The notes under the pieces are model-generated. The model was given only the letters and a program-made list of their open reading frames with translations, ran no database searches and was not told the origin of the DNA. A stretch of DNA of 64,000 nt, from assembly GCA_934148985.1 (NCBI GenBank), contig CAKPDO010000001.1, positions 20,146-84,145 of the forward strand. The letters run 5' to 3'. The position numbers were made by a program, and so were the translations under genes. This document shows, in pieces, positions 3,374 through 40,278 of the stretch (its first letter is position 1; the number at the start of each line of letters is the position of its first letter). The stretch is from an uncultured Clostridia bacterium. GTDB lineage: Bacteria > Bacillota > Clostridia > TANB77 > CAG-508.

Positions 3374-4165
3374 ATGGATACAAGACCGATTGGAATATTT
3401 GATTCAGGAATTGGCGGGCTAACGGTTTTAGAAAAGCTAGAAAAAGCTATGCCAAACGAGAAATTTATATATTTAGGTGACACTCTAAATTTTCCTTATG
3501 GAGAAAAAAGTAAAGAAGAAATAATTGGGTTTTCAAAGAAAAATATAGAATATCTAATAGGGCAAGATGTAAAAATGGTTATAATCGCCTGTGGAACAGC
3601 TACGAGTCAAAGTTTGGATGAAATGAAGATAATTTTTAATATTCCAATTGTTGGAATTATTGAACCAACAGTAGATTATGTGAAAGAATTAAATATAAAG
3701 AAAATAGGGGTTATTGCTACGACTGGAACAATTAGAAGCGGAGCATGGGAGAAAAAATTAAAACAAAAAATTCCCAATATAGAAGTTATAAATAAAGCTT
3801 GCCCACTTCTTGCTAGTATTGCTGAAGAAGGAAAAGCAAGGTCGAGAGAAAGCAAGGATGCAGTTCATGAATATATGCAAGTTTTTAAGGAAAATAGTGT
3901 TGATACATTAATACTTGGATGCACACATTATCCTATATATGACGAAATTATCCAAGATGAATTTAAAAATAAAATTGATTTAATAAATACAGGAATGGCT
4001 GTTGCAGAAAAAGTAAAAAAGTATCTAATTGAAAACTGTAAAGAAAATACAAATGAAAGAAAGAAGTCAAAAATAGTAATAACAAAGCAAGAAAAAGATT
4101 TTTGTGTGAGAGCAAAAAATATTTTAAAATCAAGCCAAACGCTTGACATTACTATATTTAACTAA
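3374..4165 (+). CDS. murI: glutamate racemase
   Basis: IGIFDSGIGGLTV ... IIACGTATS ... LGCTHYP motifs; 263 aa. Confidence 0.9.
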   Translation: MDTRPIGIFDSGIGGLTVLEKLEKAMPNEKFIYLGDTLNFPYGEKSKEEIIGFSKKNIEYLIGQDVKMVIIACGTATSQSLDEMKIIFNIPIVGIIEPTVDYVKELNIKKIGVIATTGTIRSGAWEKKLKQKIPNIEVINKACPLLASIAEEGKARSRESKDAVHEYMQVFKENSVDTLILGCTHYPIYDEIIQDEFKNKIDLINTGMAVAEKVKKYLIENCKENTNERKKSKIVITKQEKDFCVRAKNILKSSQTLDITIFN

Positions 4166-4208
4166 TATAATAAATGTTATAAAAATAACAAAATAAAAGG
4201 AGCAATAA

Positions 4209-4865
4209 ATGTCAGACATAAAAAAAGACTTTTTTGATGAAAAATATAATAAGATGACAGATGAAAATTTATTACAAGAAATAACACAAAATCAAAATAA
4301 TATGGCATTAGACTGTCTAATAAACAGATATAAAGATGTAGTCGGAATGAAAGCCAATAAATTTTTTATGGTAGGTTCAGAAAAAGATGATATGTTGCAA
4401 GAGGGCTATATTGGTTTATATAAAGCTGTAAAGTCATTTGATAAAGAAAAGCAAAATTCCTTTAAGACATTTGCTGGACTTTGCATAGAAAGACAAATGA
4501 TAACAGCTGTAAAAAATTCAAACAGACAAAAACATATTCCACTAAATTCATCTTTATCATTAAATTCTGGGGCATATGATGAAGATGACGATACAGAAGT
4601 AATGGAAATTTTAGATACAAGAAAAACTGGAGAAGATCCATTAGACATAGTAACTAAAAAGGAGTATTTTACGGTTGTAGAAAATGCAATAGATGATAGT
4701 TTAAGTGATTTTGAAAAAAAGGTTTTGCAGCATTACAAAAATGGAGAAAGTTATGCAGAAATTGCTCAAAAACTTCAAAGTAAAGTAAAATCAGTAGATA
4801 CAGCTATTCAAAGAATACGAAAAAAAGCAATGAAAATAAAGCAAAAAATAGAAGAAGGAGACTAA
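4209..4865 (+). CDS. sigH: RNA polymerase sporulation sigma factor SigH
   Basis: EGYIGLYKAVKSFDKEKQNSFKTFAGLCIERQMITAVKNSNRQKHIPLNS is near-identical in pattern to Bacillus SigH region 2; region 4 HTH at the C-terminus. Confidence 0.8.
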   Translation: MSDIKKDFFDEKYNKMTDENLLQEITQNQNNMALDCLINRYKDVVGMKANKFFMVGSEKDDMLQEGYIGLYKAVKSFDKEKQNSFKTFAGLCIERQMITAVKNSNRQKHIPLNSSLSLNSGAYDEDDDTEVMEILDTRKTGEDPLDIVTKKEYFTVVENAIDDSLSDFEKKVLQHYKNGESYAEIAQKLQSKVKSVDTAIQRIRKKAMKIKQKIEEGD

Positions 4866-4868
4866 TAA

Positions 4869-5423
4869 ATGAAGGAAGAATTTTTAAAACTACTTAAAAG
4901 CACAAATAGAGAAAACATAGATGAATTAATAGATTTTATAAATAAAACAGACTTTTTTGATGCACCAGCAAGTACACGTTTTCACGGAAGTAGAGAACAT
5001 GGATTAGTAGAACATAGTTTAAAAGTATATGAAATATTAAAAGAAAAAGTAAAATCAGCATGTATAGAAATAAAAACACCTCCTGAATCTGTGATATTAA
5101 TAGCATTACTACATGATTTATGTAAAGCAAATTACTATAAAATAGATTATAGAAATGCTAAAAACGCATTAGGTATATGGGAAAAAGTACCATATTACAC
5201 TGTAGAAGATACAATTCCATATGGACATGGAGAAAAGTCTGTAATGATGATTACTGAATACATAAAACTTACTCCAGAAGAAAAATATGCAATCCGTTGG
5301 CATATGGGATATACAGAGCCTAAAGAACAATATAATACAATAGGACTAGCATTTAGCAAATATCCAATTGCATTATTAACCCATGAGGCTGATTTAGAAG
5401 CAACTTATTTTTTTGATACATAA
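4869..5423 (+). CDS. HD-domain phosphohydrolase
   Basis: 184 aa; RFHGSREHGLVEHSL...LLHDLCK carries the HD motif. Confidence 0.65.
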   Translation: MKEEFLKLLKSTNRENIDELIDFINKTDFFDAPASTRFHGSREHGLVEHSLKVYEILKEKVKSACIEIKTPPESVILIALLHDLCKANYYKIDYRNAKNALGIWEKVPYYTVEDTIPYGHGEKSVMMITEYIKLTPEEKYAIRWHMGYTEPKEQYNTIGLAFSKYPIALLTHEADLEATYFFDT

Positions 5424-31672: not shown

Positions 31673-32314
31673 ATAAAAGAACAACTATTAGACCTAATAT
31701 ATCCGCCAACTTGTGGGATATGTGGAAAAGGCAAAAAAACGTATCTATGTAAAAAATGCGAAAACAAATTGAACCAAATAGCAATCTTTGGAAAAGATGA
31801 ATATTCAGATAAATACTTTGAGAAACACTATTATTTATTTAAATATGACGATATAATAAGAACGATGCTAATAGACTATAAATTTAATGAAAAGCCATAT
31901 TTATATAGAAGTTTTATGGAATTTTTTAATAAATACAAAAAAAGGTATCATGAATTTGAAATATATGATATAATAGTGCCGGTTCCAATAAGTAAAAAAA
32001 GAATGAGAGATAGAGGATATAACCAAAGCCTTTTAATAGCAAGTGATATAGCAAAGAAATCAAAAGTAAAGCTTGAAAAAAATGTTATAAAAAAGGAACA
32101 GAACAATACTCCTCAAAGCTTATTAGACAAAAGTGGAAGAGAAAAAAATGTTGTAAATGTATATAAAATAGTATATAAGCAAAAAATATTAAATAAAAAA
32201 ATATTATTAATAGATGACATATTTACAACAGGAGCTACAGTGAATGAATGCAGCAAAATGCTAAAGATATCAGGTGCGGAAAAAGTAGATGTACTAACAA
32301 TTGCAAAAGATTAA
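31673..32314 (+). CDS. comFC: ComF-family phosphoribosyltransferase; conserved N-terminal zinc ribbon lies upstream of any canonical start codon
   Basis: The frame is open from 31670 and encodes LLDLIYPPTCGICGK...LCKKCENKL (ComFC zinc ribbon), but the first ATG/GTG/TTG in frame is TTG 31769. An ATA at 31673 lies 10 nt after RBS AAAGGAG. C-terminal PRTase motif LLIDDIFTTGAT. Confidence 0.65.
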   Translation: MKEQLLDLIYPPTCGICGKGKKTYLCKKCENKLNQIAIFGKDEYSDKYFEKHYYLFKYDDIIRTMLIDYKFNEKPYLYRSFMEFFNKYKKRYHEFEIYDIIVPVPISKKRMRDRGYNQSLLIASDIAKKSKVKLEKNVIKKEQNNTPQSLLDKSGREKNVVNVYKIVYKQKILNKKILLIDDIFTTGATVNECSKMLKISGAEKVDVLTIAKD

Positions 32315-32336
32315 AAAAATTAAAGGAGGAAGCAAA

Positions 32337-34337
32337 ATGGACGATTTAATAGAAAGCATACTTGATTATGTACGTTCAGATTATACAGATTATGCAATAA
32401 TGATAAATGGAGAATGGGGTTCTGGAAAGACATATTTTTGGAACAATCAAGTAAAAAAGAAAATTGAATCATTAAAATTAAATGGAAAAAAATTCACAAC
32501 AATATATATGTCTTTATATGGAATATCAAATTTAGAAGAAATAAGCAAAAAAATATTTATGGAAACTTCCCAATTAATGGATAGAAACCTAAGAAGATAT
32601 ATGAATACAAAAGGTATAACAACTATACCAGAATATGCAAAAACTGGAATAGACATGGCAAATCTTTTTGGGTCTTCATCAAATGGGGGAAGAATAGATT
32701 ATGATGAATTTTTCTCGACAGATGATAAAGTATTATGTTTTGATGACTTAGAAAGAGCAAATGTTGATGTAATAGATATATTGGGATATATAAATAATTT
32801 TGTTGAACATGACCATATAAAAACAATAATTATATGTAATGAAAGAGAACTTTCAACAAAAATAAAAAATAATAATTTGGAAATGAAAACATTTATTGCA
32901 ACATACTTGTTGGACAAACAAGGAGAGCTTAATAAATCAGATAAGCCAATGGTTGAAAAAATTCAAGATAAAATTGAGCATGTATTTGATAAAGCAATAG
33001 ATTATGAAAGAATAAAAGAAAAATTGATAGGCGAAACTTTTGAATATGCTCCACAATTTGATTATATAATAAATGGAATTTTTATGAGATTTGAACAAAA
33101 TCGCGACCTAATAAGATTTTTGAGGGAAAATACAAAACTTATAATATCTACATTTAAGAAAAGTGGAACAAGAAATTTGCGTATTTTAAAACATGCTTTA
33201 AATGATTTTAGTAAAATTTATGAAGAAGTAAGCAATTTATATCCAAATACAAACTATAGAGCTATGCAGGCTATGCTTATTTTTACAATTGCGGTTTCAT
33301 TTGAGATTAAAGCTGGAAAGATAACTAAAGAAAAATTTAAAAATATAAAAGATAATGAAGAATACAAGTCAATTTTGGTATCTTCTAGGGTTTTAATGGA
33401 TAATAGGCAATTTTATATAAAAGAATTTGATGGAAATTATTACTATAATTTTAAATCAGATTATAGGTTCTTTAAATTTATAGAATATTATGTAAGAACA
33501 AGAATATTTGACATGAAATTATTTAAAGAAGAACTTGAGGCTGTAAATGCAAGTCCTAAAACAAAGAAAGTTCCATCATACAAAAAAATTCTTGTAGAAG
33601 AATATTGGAAATTACCAGATGAACAATTTACAAAGATTGTTGAAGAAACTCTTGAAGAAGTTCAAAAAGGAGAGATTGAATTAATTGATGTTGTAAAATT
33701 ATTTGAATATTTTGTATATTTTTCAAAAAGTGGGTTGATAAGAAACGATGTTCCTACATTAAAAACAGTATTTTTAAATGGAATGAATTTATCTTCACTT
33801 CATTCTAAATATTGTCCAAATGTTGACGAAGAATTAGGAAAAGTTATTATAAGAGATGAAGAAAAATACTTAAATGAAGATTTGACAGATGTAATGGTTA
33901 GATTTGATGAATTAAATAATCAACTTTTAGAAAAAGAATACAGGGAAAAAGCTGATGAAATATTTAAATACATTCCTATGAAGATGGAACAATTCTATGA
34001 AAGATTTGATAAGGAATGTAACAATATTCCAATACTAAAATATTATGATCCATTCCAAGTATTCCAGAGAATTTCTTGTGCAAGTAATGAAGATATTGTT
34101 GCAATTAAGGAAAAAATTGTAAAAAGAGCAAAAGATAATCCAAGGGTTTTGAAAGAGGAATTGTTAAATTTAAGTAAACTTAAGAGATTGATGGATGAAT
34201 ATATTAATGGAAAAGATATTACTATAAAGGTTGTTTTGATGAAAGAATTTTCTAGAGAACTTGGAGAGATTGTTGAAATTAGCTCTGAAGACGAAGAGGC
34301 GAAGGTGTTGGATAAGAACGAGGTTGTTTATTTGTAA
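32337..34337 (+). CDS. KAP-family P-loop NTPase
   Basis: Walker A INGEWGSGKTYF and KAP-type Walker B region VLCFDDLERANVDVIDILGYINNF; 666 aa; RBS AAAGGAGGAAG before ATG 32337. Confidence 0.7.
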   Translation: MDDLIESILDYVRSDYTDYAIMINGEWGSGKTYFWNNQVKKKIESLKLNGKKFTTIYMSLYGISNLEEISKKIFMETSQLMDRNLRRYMNTKGITTIPEYAKTGIDMANLFGSSSNGGRIDYDEFFSTDDKVLCFDDLERANVDVIDILGYINNFVEHDHIKTIIICNERELSTKIKNNNLEMKTFIATYLLDKQGELNKSDKPMVEKIQDKIEHVFDKAIDYERIKEKLIGETFEYAPQFDYIINGIFMRFEQNRDLIRFLRENTKLIISTFKKSGTRNLRILKHALNDFSKIYEEVSNLYPNTNYRAMQAMLIFTIAVSFEIKAGKITKEKFKNIKDNEEYKSILVSSRVLMDNRQFYIKEFDGNYYYNFKSDYRFFKFIEYYVRTRIFDMKLFKEELEAVNASPKTKKVPSYKKILVEEYWKLPDEQFTKIVEETLEEVQKGEIELIDVVKLFEYFVYFSKSGLIRNDVPTLKTVFLNGMNLSSLHSKYCPNVDEELGKVIIRDEEKYLNEDLTDVMVRFDELNNQLLEKEYREKADEIFKYIPMKMEQFYERFDKECNNIPILKYYDPFQVFQRISCASNEDIVAIKEKIVKRAKDNPRVLKEELLNLSKLKRLMDEYINGKDITIKVVLMKEFSRELGEIVEISSEDEEAKVLDKNEVVYL

Positions 34338-34362
34338 ATTTGGTAAGTTTTTTGAAAAAGCT

Positions 34363-34390
34363 TGCAATATATGTGAAAATAATGTATTAT
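34363..34390 (+). promoter_or_regulatory. sigma-A-type promoter (TTGCAA, 16 bp spacer, TATTAT)
   Basis: Seen directly at the overlap of the KAP gene 3' end and the following gene. Confidence 0.5.
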
Positions 34391-34461
34391 TAAGCATGAT
34401 GGCCAAAAGACCATGCAGTAATTTTGGGAAAATTATTATAACCAATAACAAGGAGGACATT

Positions 34462-35208
34462 ATGAAACGGAGAATTATGCTAAATGTACCAAGAAAAAAG
34501 GCACATATTGAAGTGAAAGATGGAAGAATTTTTTTCACGGATGATGAAGAAGATGTTTTTTTTCTTAAAACGTATGGAGAACCAGTAATCCCAGAAGGAT
34601 ATAAGCCAGTTAGTTCGGAAAATAGCAAAATATTTATGATTGAAAGAGAATTTGATGGCAGTCGATTTTGCTGGATACCTTTGCAGGAGAAATTAGAAAA
34701 TGGAAACATCGAAACAAGGAGATATAACAGCAATTTTCCTGGATTGATTGGAGCTAGGGACCCAAATACGGCAGAATTCAAAAATCAGATTAACAGAATT
34801 AAGAAGCATGGTGGTGTATATGTGTCTGCTTATTGTATTTCTTACAATCAAGAAAAAGGAATATTTCAATCTGTAAAAGATGCAAGACCACTAGATTATG
34901 TCGATTTTGATATGGCAATGAAAAATTCTAAATTTGTTGAAACAGGAAGAAATGTAAAAAGCCATTTGATCTTTGGTCTAGAATGTGACTGTATTGCTGA
35001 ATATTTCTTACACTTTGATCGAGAAACGCAAAGAGAAATTAAGAAATATTATGGAGGAAAGACGATTTGGACGCAAGAATATGGCCCTGGAATAAAAATG
35101 GTAACAAGAAGTGAAGAATGTGGAGTTGTATTAGCACATCGTTTTGGAATGCTTCCTAGATATTCAACCAAAAATCTCGGATTCCTTGTGGCTTTATCAA
35201 TTGAATGA
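34462..35208 (+). CDS. hypothetical protein (248 aa); its 3rd codon is an in-frame CGG, so the true start may be ATG 34477
   Basis: RBS AAGGAGG 5 nt before ATG 34462. With CGGA recoding at 34468 the reading would stop after 6 codons and the product would start at 34477 (MLNVPRKK...). Confidence 0.4.
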   Translation: MKRRIMLNVPRKKAHIEVKDGRIFFTDDEEDVFFLKTYGEPVIPEGYKPVSSENSKIFMIEREFDGSRFCWIPLQEKLENGNIETRRYNSNFPGLIGARDPNTAEFKNQINRIKKHGGVYVSAYCISYNQEKGIFQSVKDARPLDYVDFDMAMKNSKFVETGRNVKSHLIFGLECDCIAEYFLHFDRETQREIKKYYGGKTIWTQEYGPGIKMVTRSEECGVVLAHRFGMLPRYSTKNLGFLVALSIE

Positions 35209-35224
35209 TAAACAGCATAATATC

Positions 35225-35335
35225 CAAAGGCGGAGTTTTGAATTTTCAAAATTCCGCCTTTTTAAAAACAAAAAACGAAAAAAGGTTTGCAAAAGCAAAA
35301 ATCGTATGATATAATTATTTCAAAATTGTAAAAGA
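35225..35335 (+). repeat. 110-bp cassette: rho-independent terminator (35227-35266) plus sigma-A promoter (TTGCAA 35286-35291, 17 bp spacer, TATAAT 35309-35314); copy 1 of 2
   Basis: About 90% identical to 36027-36135; hairpin GGCGGAGTTTTGAA/TTCAAAATTCCGCC followed by a T-tract. Confidence 0.8.
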
Positions 35336-35419
35336 AATGCAAAAAATATAAGAATAAATTAAAAAAAAATAATTGTATAAATTAGTTATTTTATGCTAAA
35401 ATAAAAGAGGAGGAAAAAG

Positions 35420-35746
35420 TTGAACAAGGACTTATTAAATATTGAAATTATAAAAGAGTATATAGCCAAAAGAAAAATAGATTGGACAAAACATTGTTTA
35501 AATCGATTAAATCAAAGAGGTATATTAATATATGATGTAAAAACGGCCGTAAGCAATGGAAAAATAATTGAATATTATTATGATGATTACCCATATCCAA
35601 GTTGCTTAATATTGGGATATAATATAAATAATAAAATATTACATATAGTATGTGGAGTGAGTGAAGACATTGTTCATATTATAACTGCATATTATCCAAA
35701 TACAGAAAAATGGGAAGAAGATATGAAAACAAGGAGGTTAAAATAA
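35420..35746 (+). CDS. DUF4258-domain protein, putative toxin of a type II toxin-antitoxin pair (TTG start)
   Basis: 108 aa; DUF4258 pattern (HCLNRLNQRGILIYDVKTAV...PSCLILGYNINNKILHIVCGV); RBS AAGAGGAGGAAAAAG. Confidence 0.6.
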   Translation: MNKDLLNIEIIKEYIAKRKIDWTKHCLNRLNQRGILIYDVKTAVSNGKIIEYYYDDYPYPSCLILGYNINNKILHIVCGVSEDIVHIITAYYPNTEKWEEDMKTRRLK

Positions 35747-35976
35747 TGAATTGTTTTATGTGTAAAGGAAATTTAGTGGAAAAGAAAGTAAATTATGTAG
35801 TAGATTTAGAAGATACAATTATTATTATTAAAGGTGTTCCAGCAAAAGTATGTACTCAATGTGGAGAACAATACTTTGATGATGAAACAGCCGAAAATAT
35901 TGAAAAAATTGTAAATCAATTAAAAAAATTAGCCACAGAAGTTACTATTGTAAATTATAAAGAAAAAGTTGCTTAA
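35746..35976 (+). CDS. YgiT-type zinc-finger protein (MqsA-like N-terminal domain), putative antitoxin
   Basis: 76 aa; CxxC...CxxC (CFMCKG...CTQCGEQYF); start overlaps the toxin stop; RBS AAGGAGG. Confidence 0.55.
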   Translation: MNCFMCKGNLVEKKVNYVVDLEDTIIIIKGVPAKVCTQCGEQYFDDETAENIEKIVNQLKKLATEVTIVNYKEKVA

Positions 35977-36026
35977 TATTTGAATGGTTATTTAACAACT
36001 TTAACAATTAAATAGTCTTTAGTAAA

Positions 36027-36135
36027 AAGCGGAATTTTGAGAATTCAAAATTCCGCCTTTTCAAAAATCAAAAACGAAAAAAAGTTTGCAAAAGCAAAAA
36101 TCGTAGGATATAATTATTTCAAAATTGTAAAAGGG
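36027..36135 (+). repeat. terminator-promoter cassette, copy 2 (terminator 36025-36061; TTGCAA 36086-36091; TATAAT 36109-36114)
   Basis: Near-identical to 35225-35335. Confidence 0.8.
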
Positions 36136-36232
36136 ATATGAGAAATGAATAAAGAAATAGAAAACATATTATTCGAATTAGTAGAGATTTTTTACATGAT
36201 ATTAACATTGTTTTTCTGTATTTAGCACAAAA

Positions 36233-36481
36233 ATGGAATATTCTGTAAGAGATGGCTCACAAGAAATAGGCAGTGTCCAAACTCCTTATATAATTGGCCA
36301 GCAGTTTTTGGAGAACATTTTAGAAAAAATTAAAATAAAAAAAATTGATAAATGGGAGCTTGAAATTCCAGATGCTTCTCAAAAAGATGGTAAATATAAT
36401 TTGATGATTCCAAAGAATTTGCTAAAAAAACAATTTATTGAAGATTGTGTTGATGTGGATAATATGAAGAATGAATTATAA
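36233..36481 (+). CDS. hypothetical protein (82 aa)
   Basis: ORF only; no clear RBS. Confidence 0.25.
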   Translation: MEYSVRDGSQEIGSVQTPYIIGQQFLENILEKIKIKKIDKWELEIPDASQKDGKYNLMIPKNLLKKQFIEDCVDVDNMKNEL

Positions 36482-36570
36482 AAAAGGATATTATTAATTT
36501 TTCACGAAAACTAAAATACTTTCATAAAATATAACAAAAAAGAAACTTTTATGAAAGGAAAGAGAGAAAA

Positions 36571-37824
36571 ATGTCAAATTACATAATAGAAGGAGGCAAA
36601 AGGTTATGCGGAGAAACCTTTGTTTCTGGGTCAAAAAATGCGTCACTCCCAATAATGGCTGCAAGTGTATTAAACAGAGGAATAACGAAACTTTATAATG
36701 TTCCAAATATTCACGACACGCAAATGATGATAGAAATATTAAAAAATATAGGATGCAAAGTAAAGAAAAATCAAAATAAAATTGTAATTGATTCTAGAAA
36801 TGTAAACAAATTTGAAATACCTGAACATTTAATGAGACAAATGAGGTCATCAGTTATTTTTGCTGGAGCAATTTTAGGAAGATATAAAAAGGTTATATTT
36901 TCGTATCCAGGAGGTTGTGATATTGGCTCAAGACCAATAGATTTACATCTAAAAGGATTTGAAAAATTAGGAGCGACAGTAAATCAAGATTTTGGAAAAA
37001 TAGTATGTGAAACAGAAAAAATAATTCCAACGGAAATAAATTTAGATTTTCCAAGTGTAGGAGCAACTGAAAATATTATGCTATTATCTGTGCTATCAGA
37101 TGGAGAAACTACGATAATAAATGCAGCAATGGAACCAGAAATAGTAGATTTACAAAATTTTTTGAATAAAATGGGAGCAAAAATTGAGGGAGCGGGAAGC
37201 AACATAATAAAAATACAAGGAGTTAAAAATTTAAAAGATGCAAGCTATAATGTTATGCCAGATAGAATAGAAGCGGGAACACTTTTATGTGCGGCAGCGA
37301 TTACAGGTGGAGAAATAACACTAAAAAAGGTAAATGCATCTCATATTACACCTGTTTTGAATAAATTAGCAGAGATGGGGTGCACAATAAAGTTAAAAGA
37401 AAACGAGATTAATTTAAAATCACCGAAAAAACTAAAGGCAATTGACATTAAAACAATGCCATATCCAGGATTCCCAACAGATATGCAAGCTATAATTGGA
37501 GCAGTTTTATGTGTGGCTTCTGGAACGTCAATTATCGTAGAAAATATATTTGAAAATAGATACAAATATACGGCAGAACTACAAAAAATGGGAGCAAATA
37601 TAAATATTGAAGGAAAAACAGCTATTATAAAAGGAGTAAAAAAATTATCTGGAACTAAAGTTAGAGTAACTGATTTAAGAGGTGGTGCAAGCTTAGTTTT
37701 AGGAGGATTGGCAGCTAAAGGTACTACTAATGTGGAAGATATTCAATACATTTTGAGAGGATATGAAAATTTAGATGGCAAACTTAAAAATTTGGGAGCG
37801 GAAATTTATACGGTTAAAGATTAG
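36571..37824 (+). CDS. murA: UDP-N-acetylglucosamine 1-carboxyvinyltransferase
   Basis: 417 aa; catalytic Cys loop (PGGCDIGSRPIDLH); EPSP-synthase fold pattern throughout. Confidence 0.9.
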   Translation: MSNYIIEGGKRLCGETFVSGSKNASLPIMAASVLNRGITKLYNVPNIHDTQMMIEILKNIGCKVKKNQNKIVIDSRNVNKFEIPEHLMRQMRSSVIFAGAILGRYKKVIFSYPGGCDIGSRPIDLHLKGFEKLGATVNQDFGKIVCETEKIIPTEINLDFPSVGATENIMLLSVLSDGETTIINAAMEPEIVDLQNFLNKMGAKIEGAGSNIIKIQGVKNLKDASYNVMPDRIEAGTLLCAAAITGGEITLKKVNASHITPVLNKLAEMGCTIKLKENEINLKSPKKLKAIDIKTMPYPGFPTDMQAIIGAVLCVASGTSIIVENIFENRYKYTAELQKMGANINIEGKTAIIKGVKKLSGTKVRVTDLRGGASLVLGGLAAKGTTNVEDIQYILRGYENLDGKLKNLGAEIYTVKD

Positions 37825-37995
37825 TGGAAAGGAGAAATCTTTTCCATTTTCCATTTTGGATATATATATGCAATTATAACAAAAATTATAAATTGGTTCT
37901 AATAATTTTTTGAAAAATGTTGCCAAAAAAGACAACGTTTGATATACTTTATATGAAAAAATAGTGAAGTTATAGAAAAAGGAATGGATTTTCTT

Positions 37996-40278
37996 ATGAT
38001 AAAAATGAAAAATAAGATAATATTGGTATGTGTAATAATATGTATGTTATTTGGAACAAAAGTATATGCTTTAGATGAATCAAATAGCACAAAATTATTA
38101 TATCAAGATGCTACTATTAATGAAGATGGAAGTATTTATGTAAAAGAAGTTGTGTGGCAAAATGGTAAATATAATGGATTTTATGCTAAAAAAATTTTTT
38201 CGAGATATGATGTGTATCCGTTTACAGGAATATATAGTAATTTTTCTGGAGACTCAGAAATATATAATGCTACAGGAATAACGGATGTAAAAGTATACGA
38301 TATTTCGCAAGCAAATTTTTTATCAATCGATGATATGAACAATAAAGAAAATGAGTATAAGAGAGTAGATAGTGCATCAAATGGAAAATATGGTGTTTAT
38401 ACTGTTTCTAATAATAAAAGGTCAATAGAAATAAATGTTTTTTGCCCATCAAAAAAGAAAAAGGTAATTTATAGAGAATATGTAATACACGACGCTGTTG
38501 TTGTGCATAATGATATTGCCGAACTGTATTGGTGTTTTCTTGAAACAAATGAAAAATTTTTAGATTACCAGTTAAAAGTGCATTTACCTAAAGAAGACAA
38601 AAATGTAATGGTATGGTCACATGGACCTTCATCGGGATATTGCACAATTGATGATTATAAGACACTATCTTTAAAAGATAGTGAAGTTAATGAAAATAGT
38701 TATGAAACCATAAGAATAATGTTTAACAAAGAATTAGTACCTAATGGAACAAAAAAATCAAATGTAGATGGAAAAGATTACATTTTACAATATGAAAATG
38801 CTGTGGCAAATCCAGAAACAGCATTAGATGAAGAAAACAAAACAGAAATAGAAAATAAACTAAGTCAGGCGTTTGTAGAATTAAATAAGAAAGCTACAAT
38901 TTATTGGTATAATATAGCTCAAGAGTTAATAGAAAAAGTAAAATGGGATGATTCATTAAAAACGGAGTATGAAAAAAAATTAGAAGCTTTTTACGAAGAA
39001 GCTAATGATGATTGGAAAAGAAGTATAGAAGAAGAATATAATTACATGATACAAAATAAAAATTTTGCTGAATACAAAATAAACTCATTTATATCAAGCA
39101 TTGATAAAGGCATTGATGAAAATTTGAAAAGCGAATATTATGAAAAAATAAATCGAATCCAAAAACAAAAGAAAGAAAGAGATTTGAAAAATAAACAAAA
39201 AATAGTAAAAACAGTTGCTATAGTATATTATATTTTTGGAGTTATTTGCATATTAGTATTGATAAAAATATTTTTCGAAAAAAGGATATATTATAATAAA
39301 TATTACAGAGACTTCCCAAGTGATGATAGAGCATATATAATAGATTATTTAATGAATAAAAAAGTTACGGGAAAAACTTTTTCTGCTGCAATACTTGATT
39401 TAATATCAAAAAAGAAAATACAGATAGAAAAAAATAAAGATGATGAAAACGACTATAACTTAATTTTAAAGGATACTAAATCTAGTAGAACTATGGTAGA
39501 AAATACTGTTGTTAAAATATTGTTTGAAGTTATTGGAAGGAACAATATTTGCTCAATAAAAAGTTTAAAAGATTTTGCAGCTGAGCCAAGAAAAATAGAT
39601 GAATATGTCTATGCTTTTTATGAATTTAAAGAGAACGTATTAAGAGAAATTTATTATAAAGAATATTTTAAAAAAGATAACATTTATACAAAAATATTAC
39701 AAAAGAGTCCATTGATAGTAGGAATAATATGCTTTATATTAGGTCTATTTATAAGTGAAAATGGATATATTGATATATTAAATTACTATGGATTAGTAAT
39801 GATATTAAGTTTAATAGATTACAAAATATTAGCTTTAGATAAAAGAAGAACTAAAAAAGGAAAATTTGAATATTCTAAGTGGTTAGCACATAAAAGATTT
39901 CTAAACGACTTTGGAAATTTTAGCGAAAAGGAACTTCCTGAAATAATATTATGGGAAAGATATCTTGCTACAGCGACAGCACTTGGGTGTTCAAAAAAAG
40001 TATTAAAGCAAATGGTAAAACATATTGATTTTACATTGCCGGAAACAGAAAAATATAGATATGTTTTGGGAGAATATTATAATTATATGGCTTTAAGAAA
40101 ATTAGAAAATGATCTACATAGATTAATAAAAAATGCACAAAAAGAAGCAAATAGAAGAAATTTATATAAAAATTCAAATTCTTCAAAAATAGATTCATAT
40201 ACATCTGGTTCTGGATTCGGTGGAAGTTCATCTTCTGGCGGAAAAGGAGGCGGAGGAGGAAAAATGGGTCGCTTTTAA
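37996..40278 (+). CDS. DUF2207-family membrane protein with signal peptide and a C-terminal Gly-rich tail
   Basis: Signal peptide, a large extracellular domain of about 380 aa, TM helices at about aa 400-425 and 575-625, and a tail GSGFGGSSSSGGKGGGGGKMGRF. Start could be 37984, 37996 or 38005. Confidence 0.6.
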   Translation: MIKMKNKIILVCVIICMLFGTKVYALDESNSTKLLYQDATINEDGSIYVKEVVWQNGKYNGFYAKKIFSRYDVYPFTGIYSNFSGDSEIYNATGITDVKVYDISQANFLSIDDMNNKENEYKRVDSASNGKYGVYTVSNNKRSIEINVFCPSKKKKVIYREYVIHDAVVVHNDIAELYWCFLETNEKFLDYQLKVHLPKEDKNVMVWSHGPSSGYCTIDDYKTLSLKDSEVNENSYETIRIMFNKELVPNGTKKSNVDGKDYILQYENAVANPETALDEENKTEIENKLSQAFVELNKKATIYWYNIAQELIEKVKWDDSLKTEYEKKLEAFYEEANDDWKRSIEEEYNYMIQNKNFAEYKINSFISSIDKGIDENLKSEYYEKINRIQKQKKERDLKNKQKIVKTVAIVYYIFGVICILVLIKIFFEKRIYYNKYYRDFPSDDRAYIIDYLMNKKVTGKTFSAAILDLISKKKIQIEKNKDDENDYNLILKDTKSSRTMVENTVVKILFEVIGRNNICSIKSLKDFAAEPRKIDEYVYAFYEFKENVLREIYYKEYFKKDNIYTKILQKSPLIVGIICFILGLFISENGYIDILNYYGLVMILSLIDYKILALDKRRTKKGKFEYSKWLAHKRFLNDFGNFSEKELPEIILWERYLATATALGCSKKVLKQMVKHIDFTLPETEKYRYVLGEYYNYMALRKLENDLHRLIKNAQKEANRRNLYKNSNSSKIDSYTSGSGFGGSSSSGGKGGGGGKMGRF

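What the first reader, a model, noticed from the sequence alone, without database searches (positions are those of the whole stretch)
35225..36135. DUF4258 / YgiT-zinc-finger toxin-antitoxin pair bracketed by two copies of a 110-bp terminator-plus-promoter cassette
Seen in sequence. Two ~90%-identical cassettes at 35225-35335 and 36027-36135 each contain a strong rho-independent hairpin immediately followed by a consensus TTGCAA-17-TATAAT promoter. The first cassette drives the overlapping toxin-antitoxin genes (35420-35976). The second drives a tiny ORF and an 82-aa hypothetical (36233-36481). Duplicated insulator-promoter units around an addiction module suggest a recently inserted or duplicated mobile cassette. 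They may also be recombination substrates.
Basis: seen in the sequence. Interest (0 to 1): 0.55.

Follow-up and report, generated by a model that had tools for sequence, protein, structure and literature searches.

The report
Toxin-antitoxin pair flanked by duplicated terminator-promoter
A small, horizontally travelling toxin-antitoxin gene pair in a human-gut Clostridia genome is flanked by two copies of the local 109-bp terminator-plus-promoter stretch, and these copies have recombined in one strain lineage to delete the pair; this is real and tidy but ordinary biology.

Summary
Two direct copies of a 109-nt unit lie at 35226-35334 (A) and 36025-36133 (B). They differ by 10 substitutions and sit 799 nt apart. 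Each copy has a strong hairpin with a T-run, an A-rich tract, and TTGCAA-17-TATAAT. Between them lie a DUF4258 toxin and a 76-aa YgiT-type zinc-ribbon antitoxin.

About 20 strain contigs of the same gut species were compared:
- A-TA-B is present in both deep clades.
- One clone lacks the pair and carries a single chimeric copy, with an A-type hairpin and a B-type promoter.
- Another strain shows gene conversion between the copies.

So the repeats are used recombination substrates.

The TA DNA occurs at 85-92% identity in other species. It sits next to murA, often beside a murA-splitting serine recombinase, or next to gltX or tsaD. The 109-nt unit is absent from every one of those contexts. Cross-species homology starts at 35336, one base after the last base of copy A (35334). 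Formally, this is a 689-bp TA insert with a 109-bp duplication of the resident terminator-promoter.

No further copy was found in the window or in public scans. The closest analogue is the PeSL cassettes of T4-type phages.

Verdict: a known kind of system, low to moderate interest. How the duplication arose is unresolved.

The parts
35226..35334 (+). Repeat copy A (109 nt): terminator hairpin, A-rich tract, sigma-A-type promoter, and about 12 nt past the predicted start site.
   Evidence: It is 100% identical in all TA-bearing strains of both clades except L057.
35226..35263 (+). Hairpin A: 16-bp stem, 4-nt loop, then TTTTT. It lies 17 nt after the stop codon of the upstream 249-aa gene and is its presumed intrinsic terminator.
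   Evidence: Folds at -22.9 kcal/mol, z -7.4. The GCGGA..TCCGC stem occurs only twice in the window.
35287..35315 (+). Promoter A: TTGCAA, 17 nt, TATAAT, with an extended -10 TG. An A-rich tract (35264-35284) lies upstream.
   Evidence: The hexamers are invariant in all copies aligned. Function is inferred, not measured.
35335..36024 (+). The unique TA insert between the two repeat copies (689-690 nt): leader, toxin, antitoxin and a 3' tail. It has no terminal inverted repeats.
   Evidence: Homology to the TA DNA of other species starts at 35336 (L107, L099; 88-89%) or 35325 (L078) and ends at 35976-35980. The terminal-inverted-repeat test scored at shuffle level.
35373..35402 (+). The TA pair's own proximal promoter-like element (TTGTAT, 18 nt, TAAAAT, with TG). 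In other species it carries the palindrome GCATAAA-N8-TTTATGC, a putative operator.
   Evidence: Conserved upstream of the TA pair in L078, L083, L087 and L107, in unrelated contexts.
35420..35746 (+). Toxin gene, 108 aa, DUF4258, with a TTG start after GAGGAGG.
   Evidence: Pfam PF14076 at E 2.5e-25. AlphaFold2 (AF2) model pLDDT 84.5. Best PDB fold matches are MqsR (3hi2), 7vd7 and BrnT, TM 0.52-0.58. 406 homologues found.
35746..35976 (+). Antitoxin gene, 76 aa: a YgiT-type zinc ribbon (CxxC...CxxC) plus a helix, with no HTH domain. Its ATG overlaps the toxin stop codon (TAATG).
   Evidence: TIGR03831 at 59.4 bits (cut-off 20.2). The full MqsA family model TIGR03830 scored 30.4 against a cut-off of 61.8. 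Pfam MqsA scored 27.3 against 30.
36025..36133 (+). Repeat copy B (109 nt), 10 substitutions from A. It holds hairpin B (36024-36061), presumed to terminate the TA transcript, and promoter B (36086-36114).
   Evidence: It is more variable among strains than A.
36145..36481 (+). Pseudogene remnant: the 26-aa 'tiny ORF' (36145-36225) and the 82-aa ORF (36233-36481). Both are fragments of a 196-aa ORF that is intact in L096 and L097.
   Evidence: P0122 starts at the tiny-ORF ATG. P0122 matches SngC residues 468-642 and BrxHI. The window clade lacks 314 nt relative to L058.
35245..35262 (+). The 18-nt stretch identical in A and B (TTCAAAATTCCGCCTTTT; 36044-36061 in B). The crossover that made the chimeric single copy of the TA-less clone lies within it.
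   Evidence: Alignment of A, B and the single copies. The flanking diagnostic substitutions are listed.

Best explanation
**What it is.** A 689-bp, horizontally mobile type II toxin-antitoxin (TA) module sits in a decaying defence island just upstream of murA. The toxin is a DUF4258, RelE/MqsR-like fold protein. The antitoxin is a zinc ribbon that resembles only the N-terminal, toxin-binding domain of MqsA. The module is bracketed by a 109-bp direct duplication of the resident intergenic unit, which consists of a terminator hairpin plus a promoter.

**What was shown**
- The repeat, its two-copy state and the identity of the TA pair.
- The left edge of the DNA that travels between species coincides with the right edge of copy A.
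- The repeat is absent wherever else the TA pair occurs.
- Strains of the same species have used the copies for recombination. One clone deleted the 799-bp unit (TA plus one repeat) by a crossover inside an 18-nt identical stretch and keeps a chimeric copy. Another strain converted the left two-thirds of A to the B sequence.

**What is inferred**
- Hairpin A ends transcription of the upstream gene.
- Promoter A, together with the TA pair's own proximal promoter, drives the pair.
- Hairpin B ends the TA transcript.
- Promoter B keeps the downstream DNA transcribed. That DNA is a helicase remnant followed by murA.
- Together these make the insertion transcriptionally neutral for its neighbours.
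- The weak TTG start of the toxin and the overlapping TAATG junction favour an excess of antitoxin.

**What is unresolved.** How the duplication arose is not settled. The candidates are a single-crossover (Campbell-type) entry of a circle that carried one copy, a replication template switch at the hairpin, or unequal exchange between two insertion alleles. The locus behaves like the terminator/promoter 'PeSL' cassettes of T4-type phages.
For: **Repeat and its parts:**

**TA identity:**. Gerdes 2025 (PMC11980606) lists DUF4258 as a toxin family of the BECR (Barnase-EndoU-ColicinE5/D-RelE) fold and reports DUF4258-MqsA fusions.

**Presence/absence polymorphism**
- TA-bearing strains have two copies, L056/L060/L063 have one, and L061 has none.
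- The single copy is A-type through the hairpin loop and B-type from the base after the T-run.
- L057's copy A has a B-type hairpin and spacer but an A-type -10 region. The switch point therefore differs from that of the deletion clone.

**Direction of change.** A tree of radA, KAP, murA, cmk-yebC and spoIIIA DNA gives two clades 1.7% apart, both with A-TA-B. The identical TA-less contigs nest inside one clade, so they are a derived deletion.

**Mobility of the TA pair without the repeat:**

**Boundary coincidence.** Homology to L107 and L099 starts at 35336, and copy A ends at 35334.

**Selection on both copies.** All 10 A/B differences spare the -35 and -10 hexamers. The one core-stem change, G.U to A-U, keeps pairing. 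This is consistent with both copies staying functional.
Against: - No transcription data exist. Promoter-like hexamers are as common in shuffled sequence of this AT-rich region.
- The TA pair has its own conserved promoter-like element, so promoter A may be redundant.
- Strain L061 lacks both copies and still has murA, so promoter B is dispensable.
- Promoter B abuts an internal fragment of a helicase gene, not an intact gene. The 'resident' unit is therefore itself at an old rearrangement junction.
- The true pre-insertion state was not found. The only single-copy strains are derived.
- Only 64 kb of this genome, plus about 21 kb around the locus in other strains, could be searched for more copies.
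- Toxicity and neutralisation are untested. The antitoxin has no DNA-binding domain, so autoregulation is unexplained.
Confidence: 0.7

Rival explanations
1. The 109-nt unit belongs to a multi-copy family of regulatory repeats scattered through this genome, a chromosomal counterpart of phage PeSLs or of REP-type terminators. The toxin-antitoxin (TA) pair simply lies between two of the copies. Cassette gain and loss would then be a general property of the family.
For: - A homologous TA pair next to gltX in another species (L088-L092) is also flanked on both sides by an identical hairpin and a similar promoter block. That pair of intergenic regions scores 53-57, against 32 or less for all other intergenic pairs.
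- The same hairpin has a third copy 4 kb away.
- Both repeat families contain TTTGCAAAnGCAAA.
- PeSLs behave exactly this way (PMC2839356).
Against: - A profile search with all filters off finds only the two copies in 64 kb and none in about 200 kb of related loci.
- The 19-mer scan of 185,579 species genomes gave only chance matches of 19-25 nt.
- The gapped pattern found nothing real in JGI metagenomes or viral contigs.
- The third hairpin copy in L088/L090 shares only 22 nt and has no promoter block.
Confidence: 0.12
2. A and B are attL and attR of a miniature integrative element. The 799-bp unit would excise as a circle and re-integrate through a dedicated site-specific recombinase supplied in trans.
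For: - The structure is formally attL-insert-attR, with a single hybrid site in strains that lack the insert.
- Close relatives of this TA pair ride next to a large serine recombinase in other genomes.
Against: - The two recombination events seen have different switch points. One lies between the hairpin and the spacer, the other between the -35 and -10 regions. This fits homologous exchange or gene conversion, not a fixed core site.
- No recombinase gene lies in or near the unit. The neighbouring ORFs that were scanned show none.
- The serine recombinase elements target codon ~110 of murA, not this intergenic site.
- Neither the unit nor the repeat was found anywhere else.
Confidence: 0.05
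3. The duplication did not arise at insertion. It came later, for example by tandem duplication of [terminator-promoter-TA] followed by loss of the second TA copy, or by unequal crossover between two alleles that carried the TA pair on either side of the same intergenic unit.
For: - The copies differ by 9% while the species' clades differ by 1.7%. The copies are therefore either old or came from diverged lineages.
- The locus is an indel hot spot: a 436-nt segment, a 314-nt segment, and the deletions in L057 and L061.
- In L078 the TA pair sits on the other side of murA, so it has landed in this neighbourhood more than once.
Against: The right edge of the A/B homology (35334) coincides to within a few bases with the left edge of the independently defined mobile TA DNA (35336). 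A later deletion would have to hit that point by chance. No allele of either intermediate kind was seen among about 20 strains.
Confidence: 0.15
4. The repeat, or the single-copy state, is an assembly artefact.
For: One contig (L072) has an N-run scaffold gap and a mis-joined B-type end right after copy A. The repeat therefore does trouble assemblers.
Against: - A-TA-B is assembled identically in at least 13 contigs from different studies and assemblers.
- The single-copy junction is identical in three shown contigs from three different samples and assembly sources (ENA k119, JGI, ENA scaffold), plus two not shown.
- The longest exact A/B match is 27 nt, far below the k-mer sizes used.
Confidence: 0.02

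Closest known systems
PeSL (promoter-early stem-loop) 'mobile regulatory cassettes' of T4-type phages (Arbiol et al. 2010, PMC2839356; Comeau et al. 2014, PMC4122927)
   Same: - Both are composites of about 100 bp: a stem-loop terminator, an AT-rich tract and a sigma-70-type promoter.
- Both flank a dispensable gene module in a variable region.
- In both, a related genome that lacks the module has a single chimeric copy.
- The proposed mechanism is homologous exchange between the copies. It deletes the module, possibly as a mini-circle, or inserts it, and each module keeps its own promoter and terminator.
   Different: - PeSLs form a family of about 50 copies per phage genome. Here only two copies are known.
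- PeSLs occur in phages of Gram-negative bacteria. This locus is in the chromosome of a Clostridia spore-former.
- In most PeSLs the stem-loop lies within or next to the promoter. Here it lies 25 nt upstream.
- No circles have been shown here.
MqsR/MqsA (YgiU/YgiT) type II toxin-antitoxin system of E. coli
   Same: - The gene order is toxin first.
- The antitoxin begins with a CxxC...CxxC zinc ribbon of the YgiT type.
- The toxin model's best solved fold matches include MqsR in complex with the N-terminal domain of MqsA (3hi2).
   Different: - The toxin belongs to Pfam DUF4258, not the MqsR family, and shares only 9-12% sequence identity with the top solved fold matches (MqsR, 7vd7, BrnT).
- The antitoxin is 76 aa and lacks the C-terminal HTH domain that MqsA uses to bind DNA. 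It falls below the cut-off of the full-family model (30.4 against 61.8 bits).
DUF4258 (PF14076) toxin family, part of the RelE/ParE or BECR superfamily (Gerdes 2025, PMC11980606)
   Same: The Pfam match is well above threshold. Pairing with MqsA-like partners agrees with the DUF4258-MqsA fusions reported in that paper.
   Different: - That survey lists the usual gene order as antitoxin then toxin. Here it is toxin then antitoxin.
- No member has been characterised experimentally.
- A 2026 preprint places the family in the colicin-like BECR branch instead.
Direct repeats (attL/attR) flanking genomic islands, and Campbell-type integration
   Same: An insert lies between direct repeats of about 100 bp that restore the target's function on both sides. 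Genomes without the insert carry a hybrid single copy.
   Different: There is no integrase. The switch points vary, so there is no fixed core. The insert is only 689 bp.

Membership tests
DUF4258 toxin (PF14076) | Match to the family profile above the curated cut-off | tested here: met
   89 bits against a cut-off of 25, E 2.5e-25, covering 70 of 71 profile positions.
DUF4258 toxin (PF14076) | RelE/MqsR/BrnT-like (BECR) alpha/beta fold | tested here: met
   AlphaFold2 (AF2) model pLDDT 84.5. The top Foldseek matches in the PDB are 7vd7_A, MqsR 3hi2_B/D and BrnT 3u97, with probability 1.0 and TM 0.52-0.58 but E values of only 0.003-0.03.
DUF4258 toxin (PF14076) | Toxic (ribonuclease) activity that the neighbouring protein neutralises | not testable with these tools
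   No member of the family has experimental data, according to PMC11980606.
Type II toxin-antitoxin operon | Two small, co-oriented, adjacent or overlapping genes that stay together across genomes | tested here: met
   The stop and start codons overlap (TAATG). The pair stays together in all other toxin-bearing contexts examined. An orphan antitoxin also exists, in L100, L103 and L106.
MqsA/YgiT antitoxin family | N-terminal YgiT-type zinc ribbon (CxxC...CxxC) | tested here: met
   TIGR03831 at 59.4 bits against a cut-off of 20.2. The cysteines are at positions 3, 6, 36 and 39.
MqsA/YgiT antitoxin family | C-terminal HTH (XRE) DNA-binding domain, giving a full-length family match | tested here: not met
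   The protein has only 76 aa. TIGR03830 scored 30.4 against 61.8, and Pfam MqsA_antitoxin scored 27.3 against 30. Only the first 63 or so profile positions match.
PeSL-type terminator/promoter cassettes | A composite of about 100 bp with a stable stem-loop, an AT-rich tract and a sigma-70-type promoter in an intergenic position | tested here: met
   the sequence is. Activity was not measured.
PeSL-type terminator/promoter cassettes | Copies flank a variable gene module, and a related genome has one chimeric copy in its place | tested here: met
   L056, L060 and L063 compared with the TA-bearing strains.
PeSL-type terminator/promoter cassettes | A family of many dispersed copies concentrated in variable regions | tested here: not met
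   Two copies in 64 kb with the most sensitive search available. None was found in the public scans. The rest of the genome is unavailable.
PeSL-type terminator/promoter cassettes | Mini-circles formed by exchange between flanking copies | not testable with these tools
   This needs outward-facing PCR or raw reads.
Transposon or IS insertion with target-site duplication | A transposase gene and terminal inverted repeats at the ends of the insert | tested here: not met
   The insert holds only the two TA genes. The end-to-end inverted-repeat score was 21, against a shuffle mean of 19.5 and a maximum of 29. A 109-bp duplication is far longer than the target-site duplications I know of for transposons (own knowledge, not checked here).
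Site-specific integrative element (attL/attR) | Exchange at one fixed core position, and a cognate recombinase | tested here: not met
   The two events have different switch points. There is no recombinase at the locus.

The most novel reading that the evidence does not exclude
Terminator-plus-promoter linkers may act in bacterial chromosomes as PeSLs do in T4-type phages. They would serve as portable homology that lets small toxin-antitoxin (TA) or defence modules leave as mini-circles and re-enter intergenic sites without disturbing neighbouring operons. The second, independent case fits this reading: a homologous TA pair next to gltX in another gut Clostridia species is also flanked by a duplicated hairpin and promoter block. 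It would mean the architecture arises through a recurrent insertion route that duplicates about 100 bp of target, not by accident.
Probability: 0.15. Interest if true: 0.6.

Novelty: new member of a known kind. Interest (0 to 1): 0.3.

Why it matters
It is a clean natural example, at base-pair resolution, of how a selfish two-gene module can sit beside an essential gene (murA) without breaking transcription on either side. It also shows that the duplicated regulatory DNA is what later lets the host lose the module.

If the same architecture proves common, it would extend the phage 'mobile regulatory cassette' idea to bacterial defence islands. It would also give a simple, integrase-free route for shuffling TA and defence genes.

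As it stands, the components are all of known kinds: a DUF4258/YgiT TA pair, an intrinsic terminator, a sigma-A promoter, and recombination between direct repeats.

Tried and rejected
- **RNA families.** An Rfam scan of 33000-39000 at E up to 1 gave only sub-threshold chance hits on the palindromes (mir-553, an Enterococcus sRNA). No known RNA family is present.
- **Genome scan.** The promoter 19-mer found 54 loci in genome contigs. All were chance matches of 19-25 nt.
- **Metagenome and viral scans.** The gapped hairpin-promoter pattern gave one GC-rich chance hit in JGI metagenomes. Neither this pattern nor the 21-nt promoter pattern (-10 region and downstream) found anything in viral contigs.
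- **Plasmids and phages.** blastn of the 911-bp region found nothing. tblastn of the toxin found only plasmid relatives at 37-40% identity and no phage hit. The IMG/VR search found only relatives at 39-54%.
- **PDB by sequence.** No meaningful hits for either protein.
- **L072.** Its odd copy A turned out to be an N-run scaffold gap.
- **Flanking duplications elsewhere.** Seven other TA contexts show none: L075, L078, L083, L093, L098-L102, L104/L105 and L107. The weak signal in L087 is a 33-nt match far from the pair.
- **Integron attC reading.** Considered from the sequence only and dropped. The perfect 16-bp stem has no GTTRRRY core. An integrase was not specifically searched for.
- **Retro-element (LTR-like) reading.** Dropped because the promoter lies after the terminator, and so outside the terminated transcript.
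- **Literature.** Searches for murA-targeting serine recombinases and for TA pairs with duplicated promoters or terminators found nothing relevant.
Full report
**1.

The region holds one direct-repeat family with copies starting at 35226 and 36025, 799 nt apart. It is the only long non-coding repeat in the 64-kb window. The well-conserved core is 109 nt, 35226-35334 (A) and 36025-36133 (B), with 10 substitutions and no indel. An 18-mer from the hairpin and a 22-mer from the promoter occur nowhere else in the window. Shuffles give expected counts of 0.48 and 0.00.

Each copy has three parts:
- It begins with a near-perfect palindrome that folds at -22.9 kcal/mol (A) or -17.2 kcal/mol (B), far below shuffled controls, and is followed by four or five T.
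- An A-rich tract follows.
- Then comes TTGCAA-17-TATAAT, with an extended -10 TG in A only.

The consensus scan finds as many promoter-like sites in shuffled sequence of this 28% G+C DNA as in the real sequence. The promoter call therefore rests on position and conservation, not on the hexamers. Rfam has nothing real here.

**2. The genes between the copies**

- The toxin (35420-35746) is a 108-aa DUF4258 protein (Pfam E 2.5e-25). It has a TTG start six bases after GAGGAGG.
- The antitoxin (35746-35976) is a 76-aa protein whose ATG shares a base with the toxin's stop codon. It passes the YgiT-type zinc-finger domain model (59.4 bits, cut-off 20.2). It fails the full MqsA family model (30.4 against 61.8) because it has no HTH domain.
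- An AlphaFold2 model of the toxin (pLDDT 84.5) is closest in the PDB to a Salmonella TA toxin, to MqsR bound to the N-terminal domain of MqsA, and to BrnT (TM 0.52-0.58).
- Gerdes (2025, PMC11980606) lists DUF4258 as an uncharacterised toxin family of the BECR (Barnase-EndoU-ColicinE5/D-RelE) fold with about 6,000 members, and reports DUF4258-MqsA fusions.

The toxin-antitoxin (TA) call is sound. Biochemistry is unknown.

**3. Other strains of the same species**

Exact-protein look-ups for MurA and the toxin returned 20 contigs from human-gut metagenomes and two MAGs, all at least 98% identical in flanking genes. Mapping the repeat on them gave three states:
- Every TA-bearing strain has A and B.
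- L056, L060 and L063 lack the TA pair and have exactly one copy at the same place.
- L061 has a larger deletion that removes both copies.

The single copy is a chimera. The left flank, stem and loop are A-type. Everything from the base after the T-run onward is B-type. The switch therefore lies inside the 18 nt shared by both copies, TTCAAAATTCCGCCTTTT.

L057 shows a different mosaic. Its copy A has the B-type hairpin and spacer but the A-type -10 region.

A neighbour-joining tree of five flanking gene blocks splits the strains into two clades 1.7% apart, and both carry A-TA-B. The three TA-less contigs are identical to each other and nest inside one clade. The simplest reading is that A-TA-B is ancestral for the species and that one clone lost the 799-bp unit through exchange between A and B. 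The differing switch points argue for homologous exchange and gene conversion, not a fixed-core site-specific reaction.

An assembly artefact is unlikely. The same junctions come from different assemblers, and the longest exact A/B match is 27 nt. One scaffolded contig (L072) does show an N-gap at the repeat.

**4. The TA pair in other species**

The toxin has 406 detectable homologues. Contexts were fetched for nine of them. They fall into these groups:
- Immediately upstream of an intact murA (L075, L104, L107).
- Between murA and cmk (L078).
- Upstream of a 547-aa large serine recombinase that abuts a murA lacking its first ~110 codons (L082-85, L098-102).
- Upstream of gltX (L088-92).
- Between a peptidase gene and tsaD (L093).
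- Elsewhere (L087).

The TA DNA is 85-92% identical to the window's, while the start of murA is 70-85% identical. L107 and L099 share an 865-bp TA segment at 97% although their murA genes are 76% identical. The pair clearly moves between lineages.

None of these loci contains the 109-nt unit. This was tested by sensitive blastn and by an nhmmer profile with filters off. The DNA that travels is the coding region plus a proximal leader. That leader carries a conserved promoter-like element, TTGCAT-18-TAAAAT, with the palindrome GCATAAA-N8-TTTATGC. In the window the element reads TTGTAT.

Homology to L107 and L099 begins at 35336, and copy A ends at 35334. The locus is therefore formally a 689-bp insert (35335-36023) plus a 109-bp duplication of the target. 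The insert has no terminal inverted repeats.

**5. The neighbourhood**

- Upstream lie radA, a ComFC/PRTase-like gene and a KAP NTPase that matches the PADLOC candidate defence system PDC-S49 (E 8e-77).
- A 249-aa gene of unknown function follows. Its stop codon is 17 nt before hairpin A.
That ORF matches only residues 468-642 of SngC/BrxHI-type helicases.
- The stretch from radA to murA is thus a decaying defence island and an indel hot spot.
- Promoter B currently faces a pseudogene and, 437 nt further on, murA. L061 shows that murA can do without it.

**6. How it most likely works**

- Shown: the structure, the polymorphism, the mosaics and the horizontal mobility of the TA pair.
- Inferred: hairpin A terminates the upstream gene. 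Promoter A and the TA pair's own promoter transcribe the pair. Hairpin B terminates that transcript. Promoter B restores transcription downstream. The insertion is then neutral for its neighbours.
- In support, none of the 10 A/B differences touches a -35 or -10 hexamer, and the one core-stem change (G.U to A-U) keeps pairing. If substitutions fell at random over 109 positions, of which about a third are hexamer or core-stem positions, sparing all of them would be expected only a few percent of the time. This is a rough estimate of my own.
- The direct repeats make the module deletable, as one clone demonstrates.

How the duplication arose is open. The boundary coincidence favours a duplication made at insertion, or inheritance from a circle that already carried one copy. 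The 9% divergence of the copies, against 1.7% between clades, means that either the event is old or the copies came from diverged lineages.

**7. A second case, and the closest known system**

In the gltX-linked species the homologous TA pair is also flanked on both sides by an identical hairpin (AAAGCCTTTGCAAACGCAAAGGCTTT) and by a promoter block about 80% alike. That pair of intergenic regions scores 53-57, against 32 or less for every other intergenic pair in the loci. The hairpin has a third copy 4 kb away that shares nothing else, so part of the signal may come from a generic terminator. Seven other contexts show no flanking duplication.

The closest described system is the PeSL cassettes of T4-type phages. 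These are terminator/promoter composites of about 100 bp that flank dispensable ORFs. Sister genomes carry a single chimeric copy, and mini-circles have been demonstrated. The present locus works like a PeSL pair but fails the family's multi-copy criterion on the data available.

**8. Verdict**

It is a new instance of known kinds of things. Interest is low to moderate, 0.3. The PeSL-like general mechanism is the most novel reading not excluded (probability about 0.15).

Noticed in passing
L098, L099, L101, L102 (recombinase 3515-5158, murA fragment from about 5136); L082-L085: A 547-aa large serine recombinase lies between the toxin-antitoxin (TA) pair and a murA gene whose homology starts only at residue 110. 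The recombinase ORF runs into the murA sequence. This looks like an integrative element that splits a murA paralogue near its catalytic loop in gut spore-forming Clostridia. The TA pair is the gene next to the recombinase. The associated antitoxin variant was seen on more than 700 contigs.
   Followed up: partly
window 32301-34337: The KAP-family NTPase matches the PADLOC candidate defence system PDC-S49 (E 8e-77). With the PRTase-like gene (31769-32314), the TA pair and the helicase remnant, the stretch from radA to murA looks like a decaying defence island.
   Followed up: partly
window 36145-36481; L096 243-833: The tiny ORF and the 82-aa ORF are fragments of a 196-aa ORF that is intact in a few strains. 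That ORF matches only the C-terminal part (residues 468-642) of SngC/BrxHI-type helicases. It is therefore a pseudogene remnant in various stages of decay across strains (161, 89, or 72+56+57 aa).
   Followed up: yes
window 35286-35299 and 36085-36098; L088 4771 and 5605; L090 4729 and 5566: The 14-nt palindromic motif TTTGCAAAnGCAAA occurs in both repeat families that flank the TA pair. In the window it overlaps the -35 region. In the gltX-linked species it is the hairpin core. It is absent near the TA pair in the other contexts. This may be coincidence, or a shared protein-binding or recombination site.
   Followed up: partly
window 35373-35402; L107 about 2615-2660; L083 about 4005-4035: A conserved promoter-like element with an inverted repeat (GCATAAA-N8-TTTATGC) travels with the TA pair across species. 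The antitoxin has no recognisable DNA-binding domain, so what binds the repeat, if anything, is unknown.
   Followed up: partly
L100, L103, L106 (3001-3231): An orphan copy of the 76-aa antitoxin, with no toxin, lies between a GGDEF/EAL gene and a carbohydrate-kinase gene in another lineage.
   Followed up: no
window 54853-57498: Four neighbouring small genes share a conserved N-terminus (MENASKALI..., hydrophobic stretch). This shows up as a 77-96-nt direct-repeat family. They have no Pfam match. They may be pilin-like or pseudopilin-like paralogues.
   Followed up: no
window 34365-34800; L058 9424-9737; L057; L061: The interval from KAP NTPase to murA is an indel hot spot within the species. 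A 436-nt segment turns a 128-aa gene into the 249-aa gene in the window clade only. A 314-nt segment of the helicase remnant is present only in the other clade. L057 lacks the 128-aa gene. L061 lacks everything from the KAP end to mid-remnant.
   Followed up: partly
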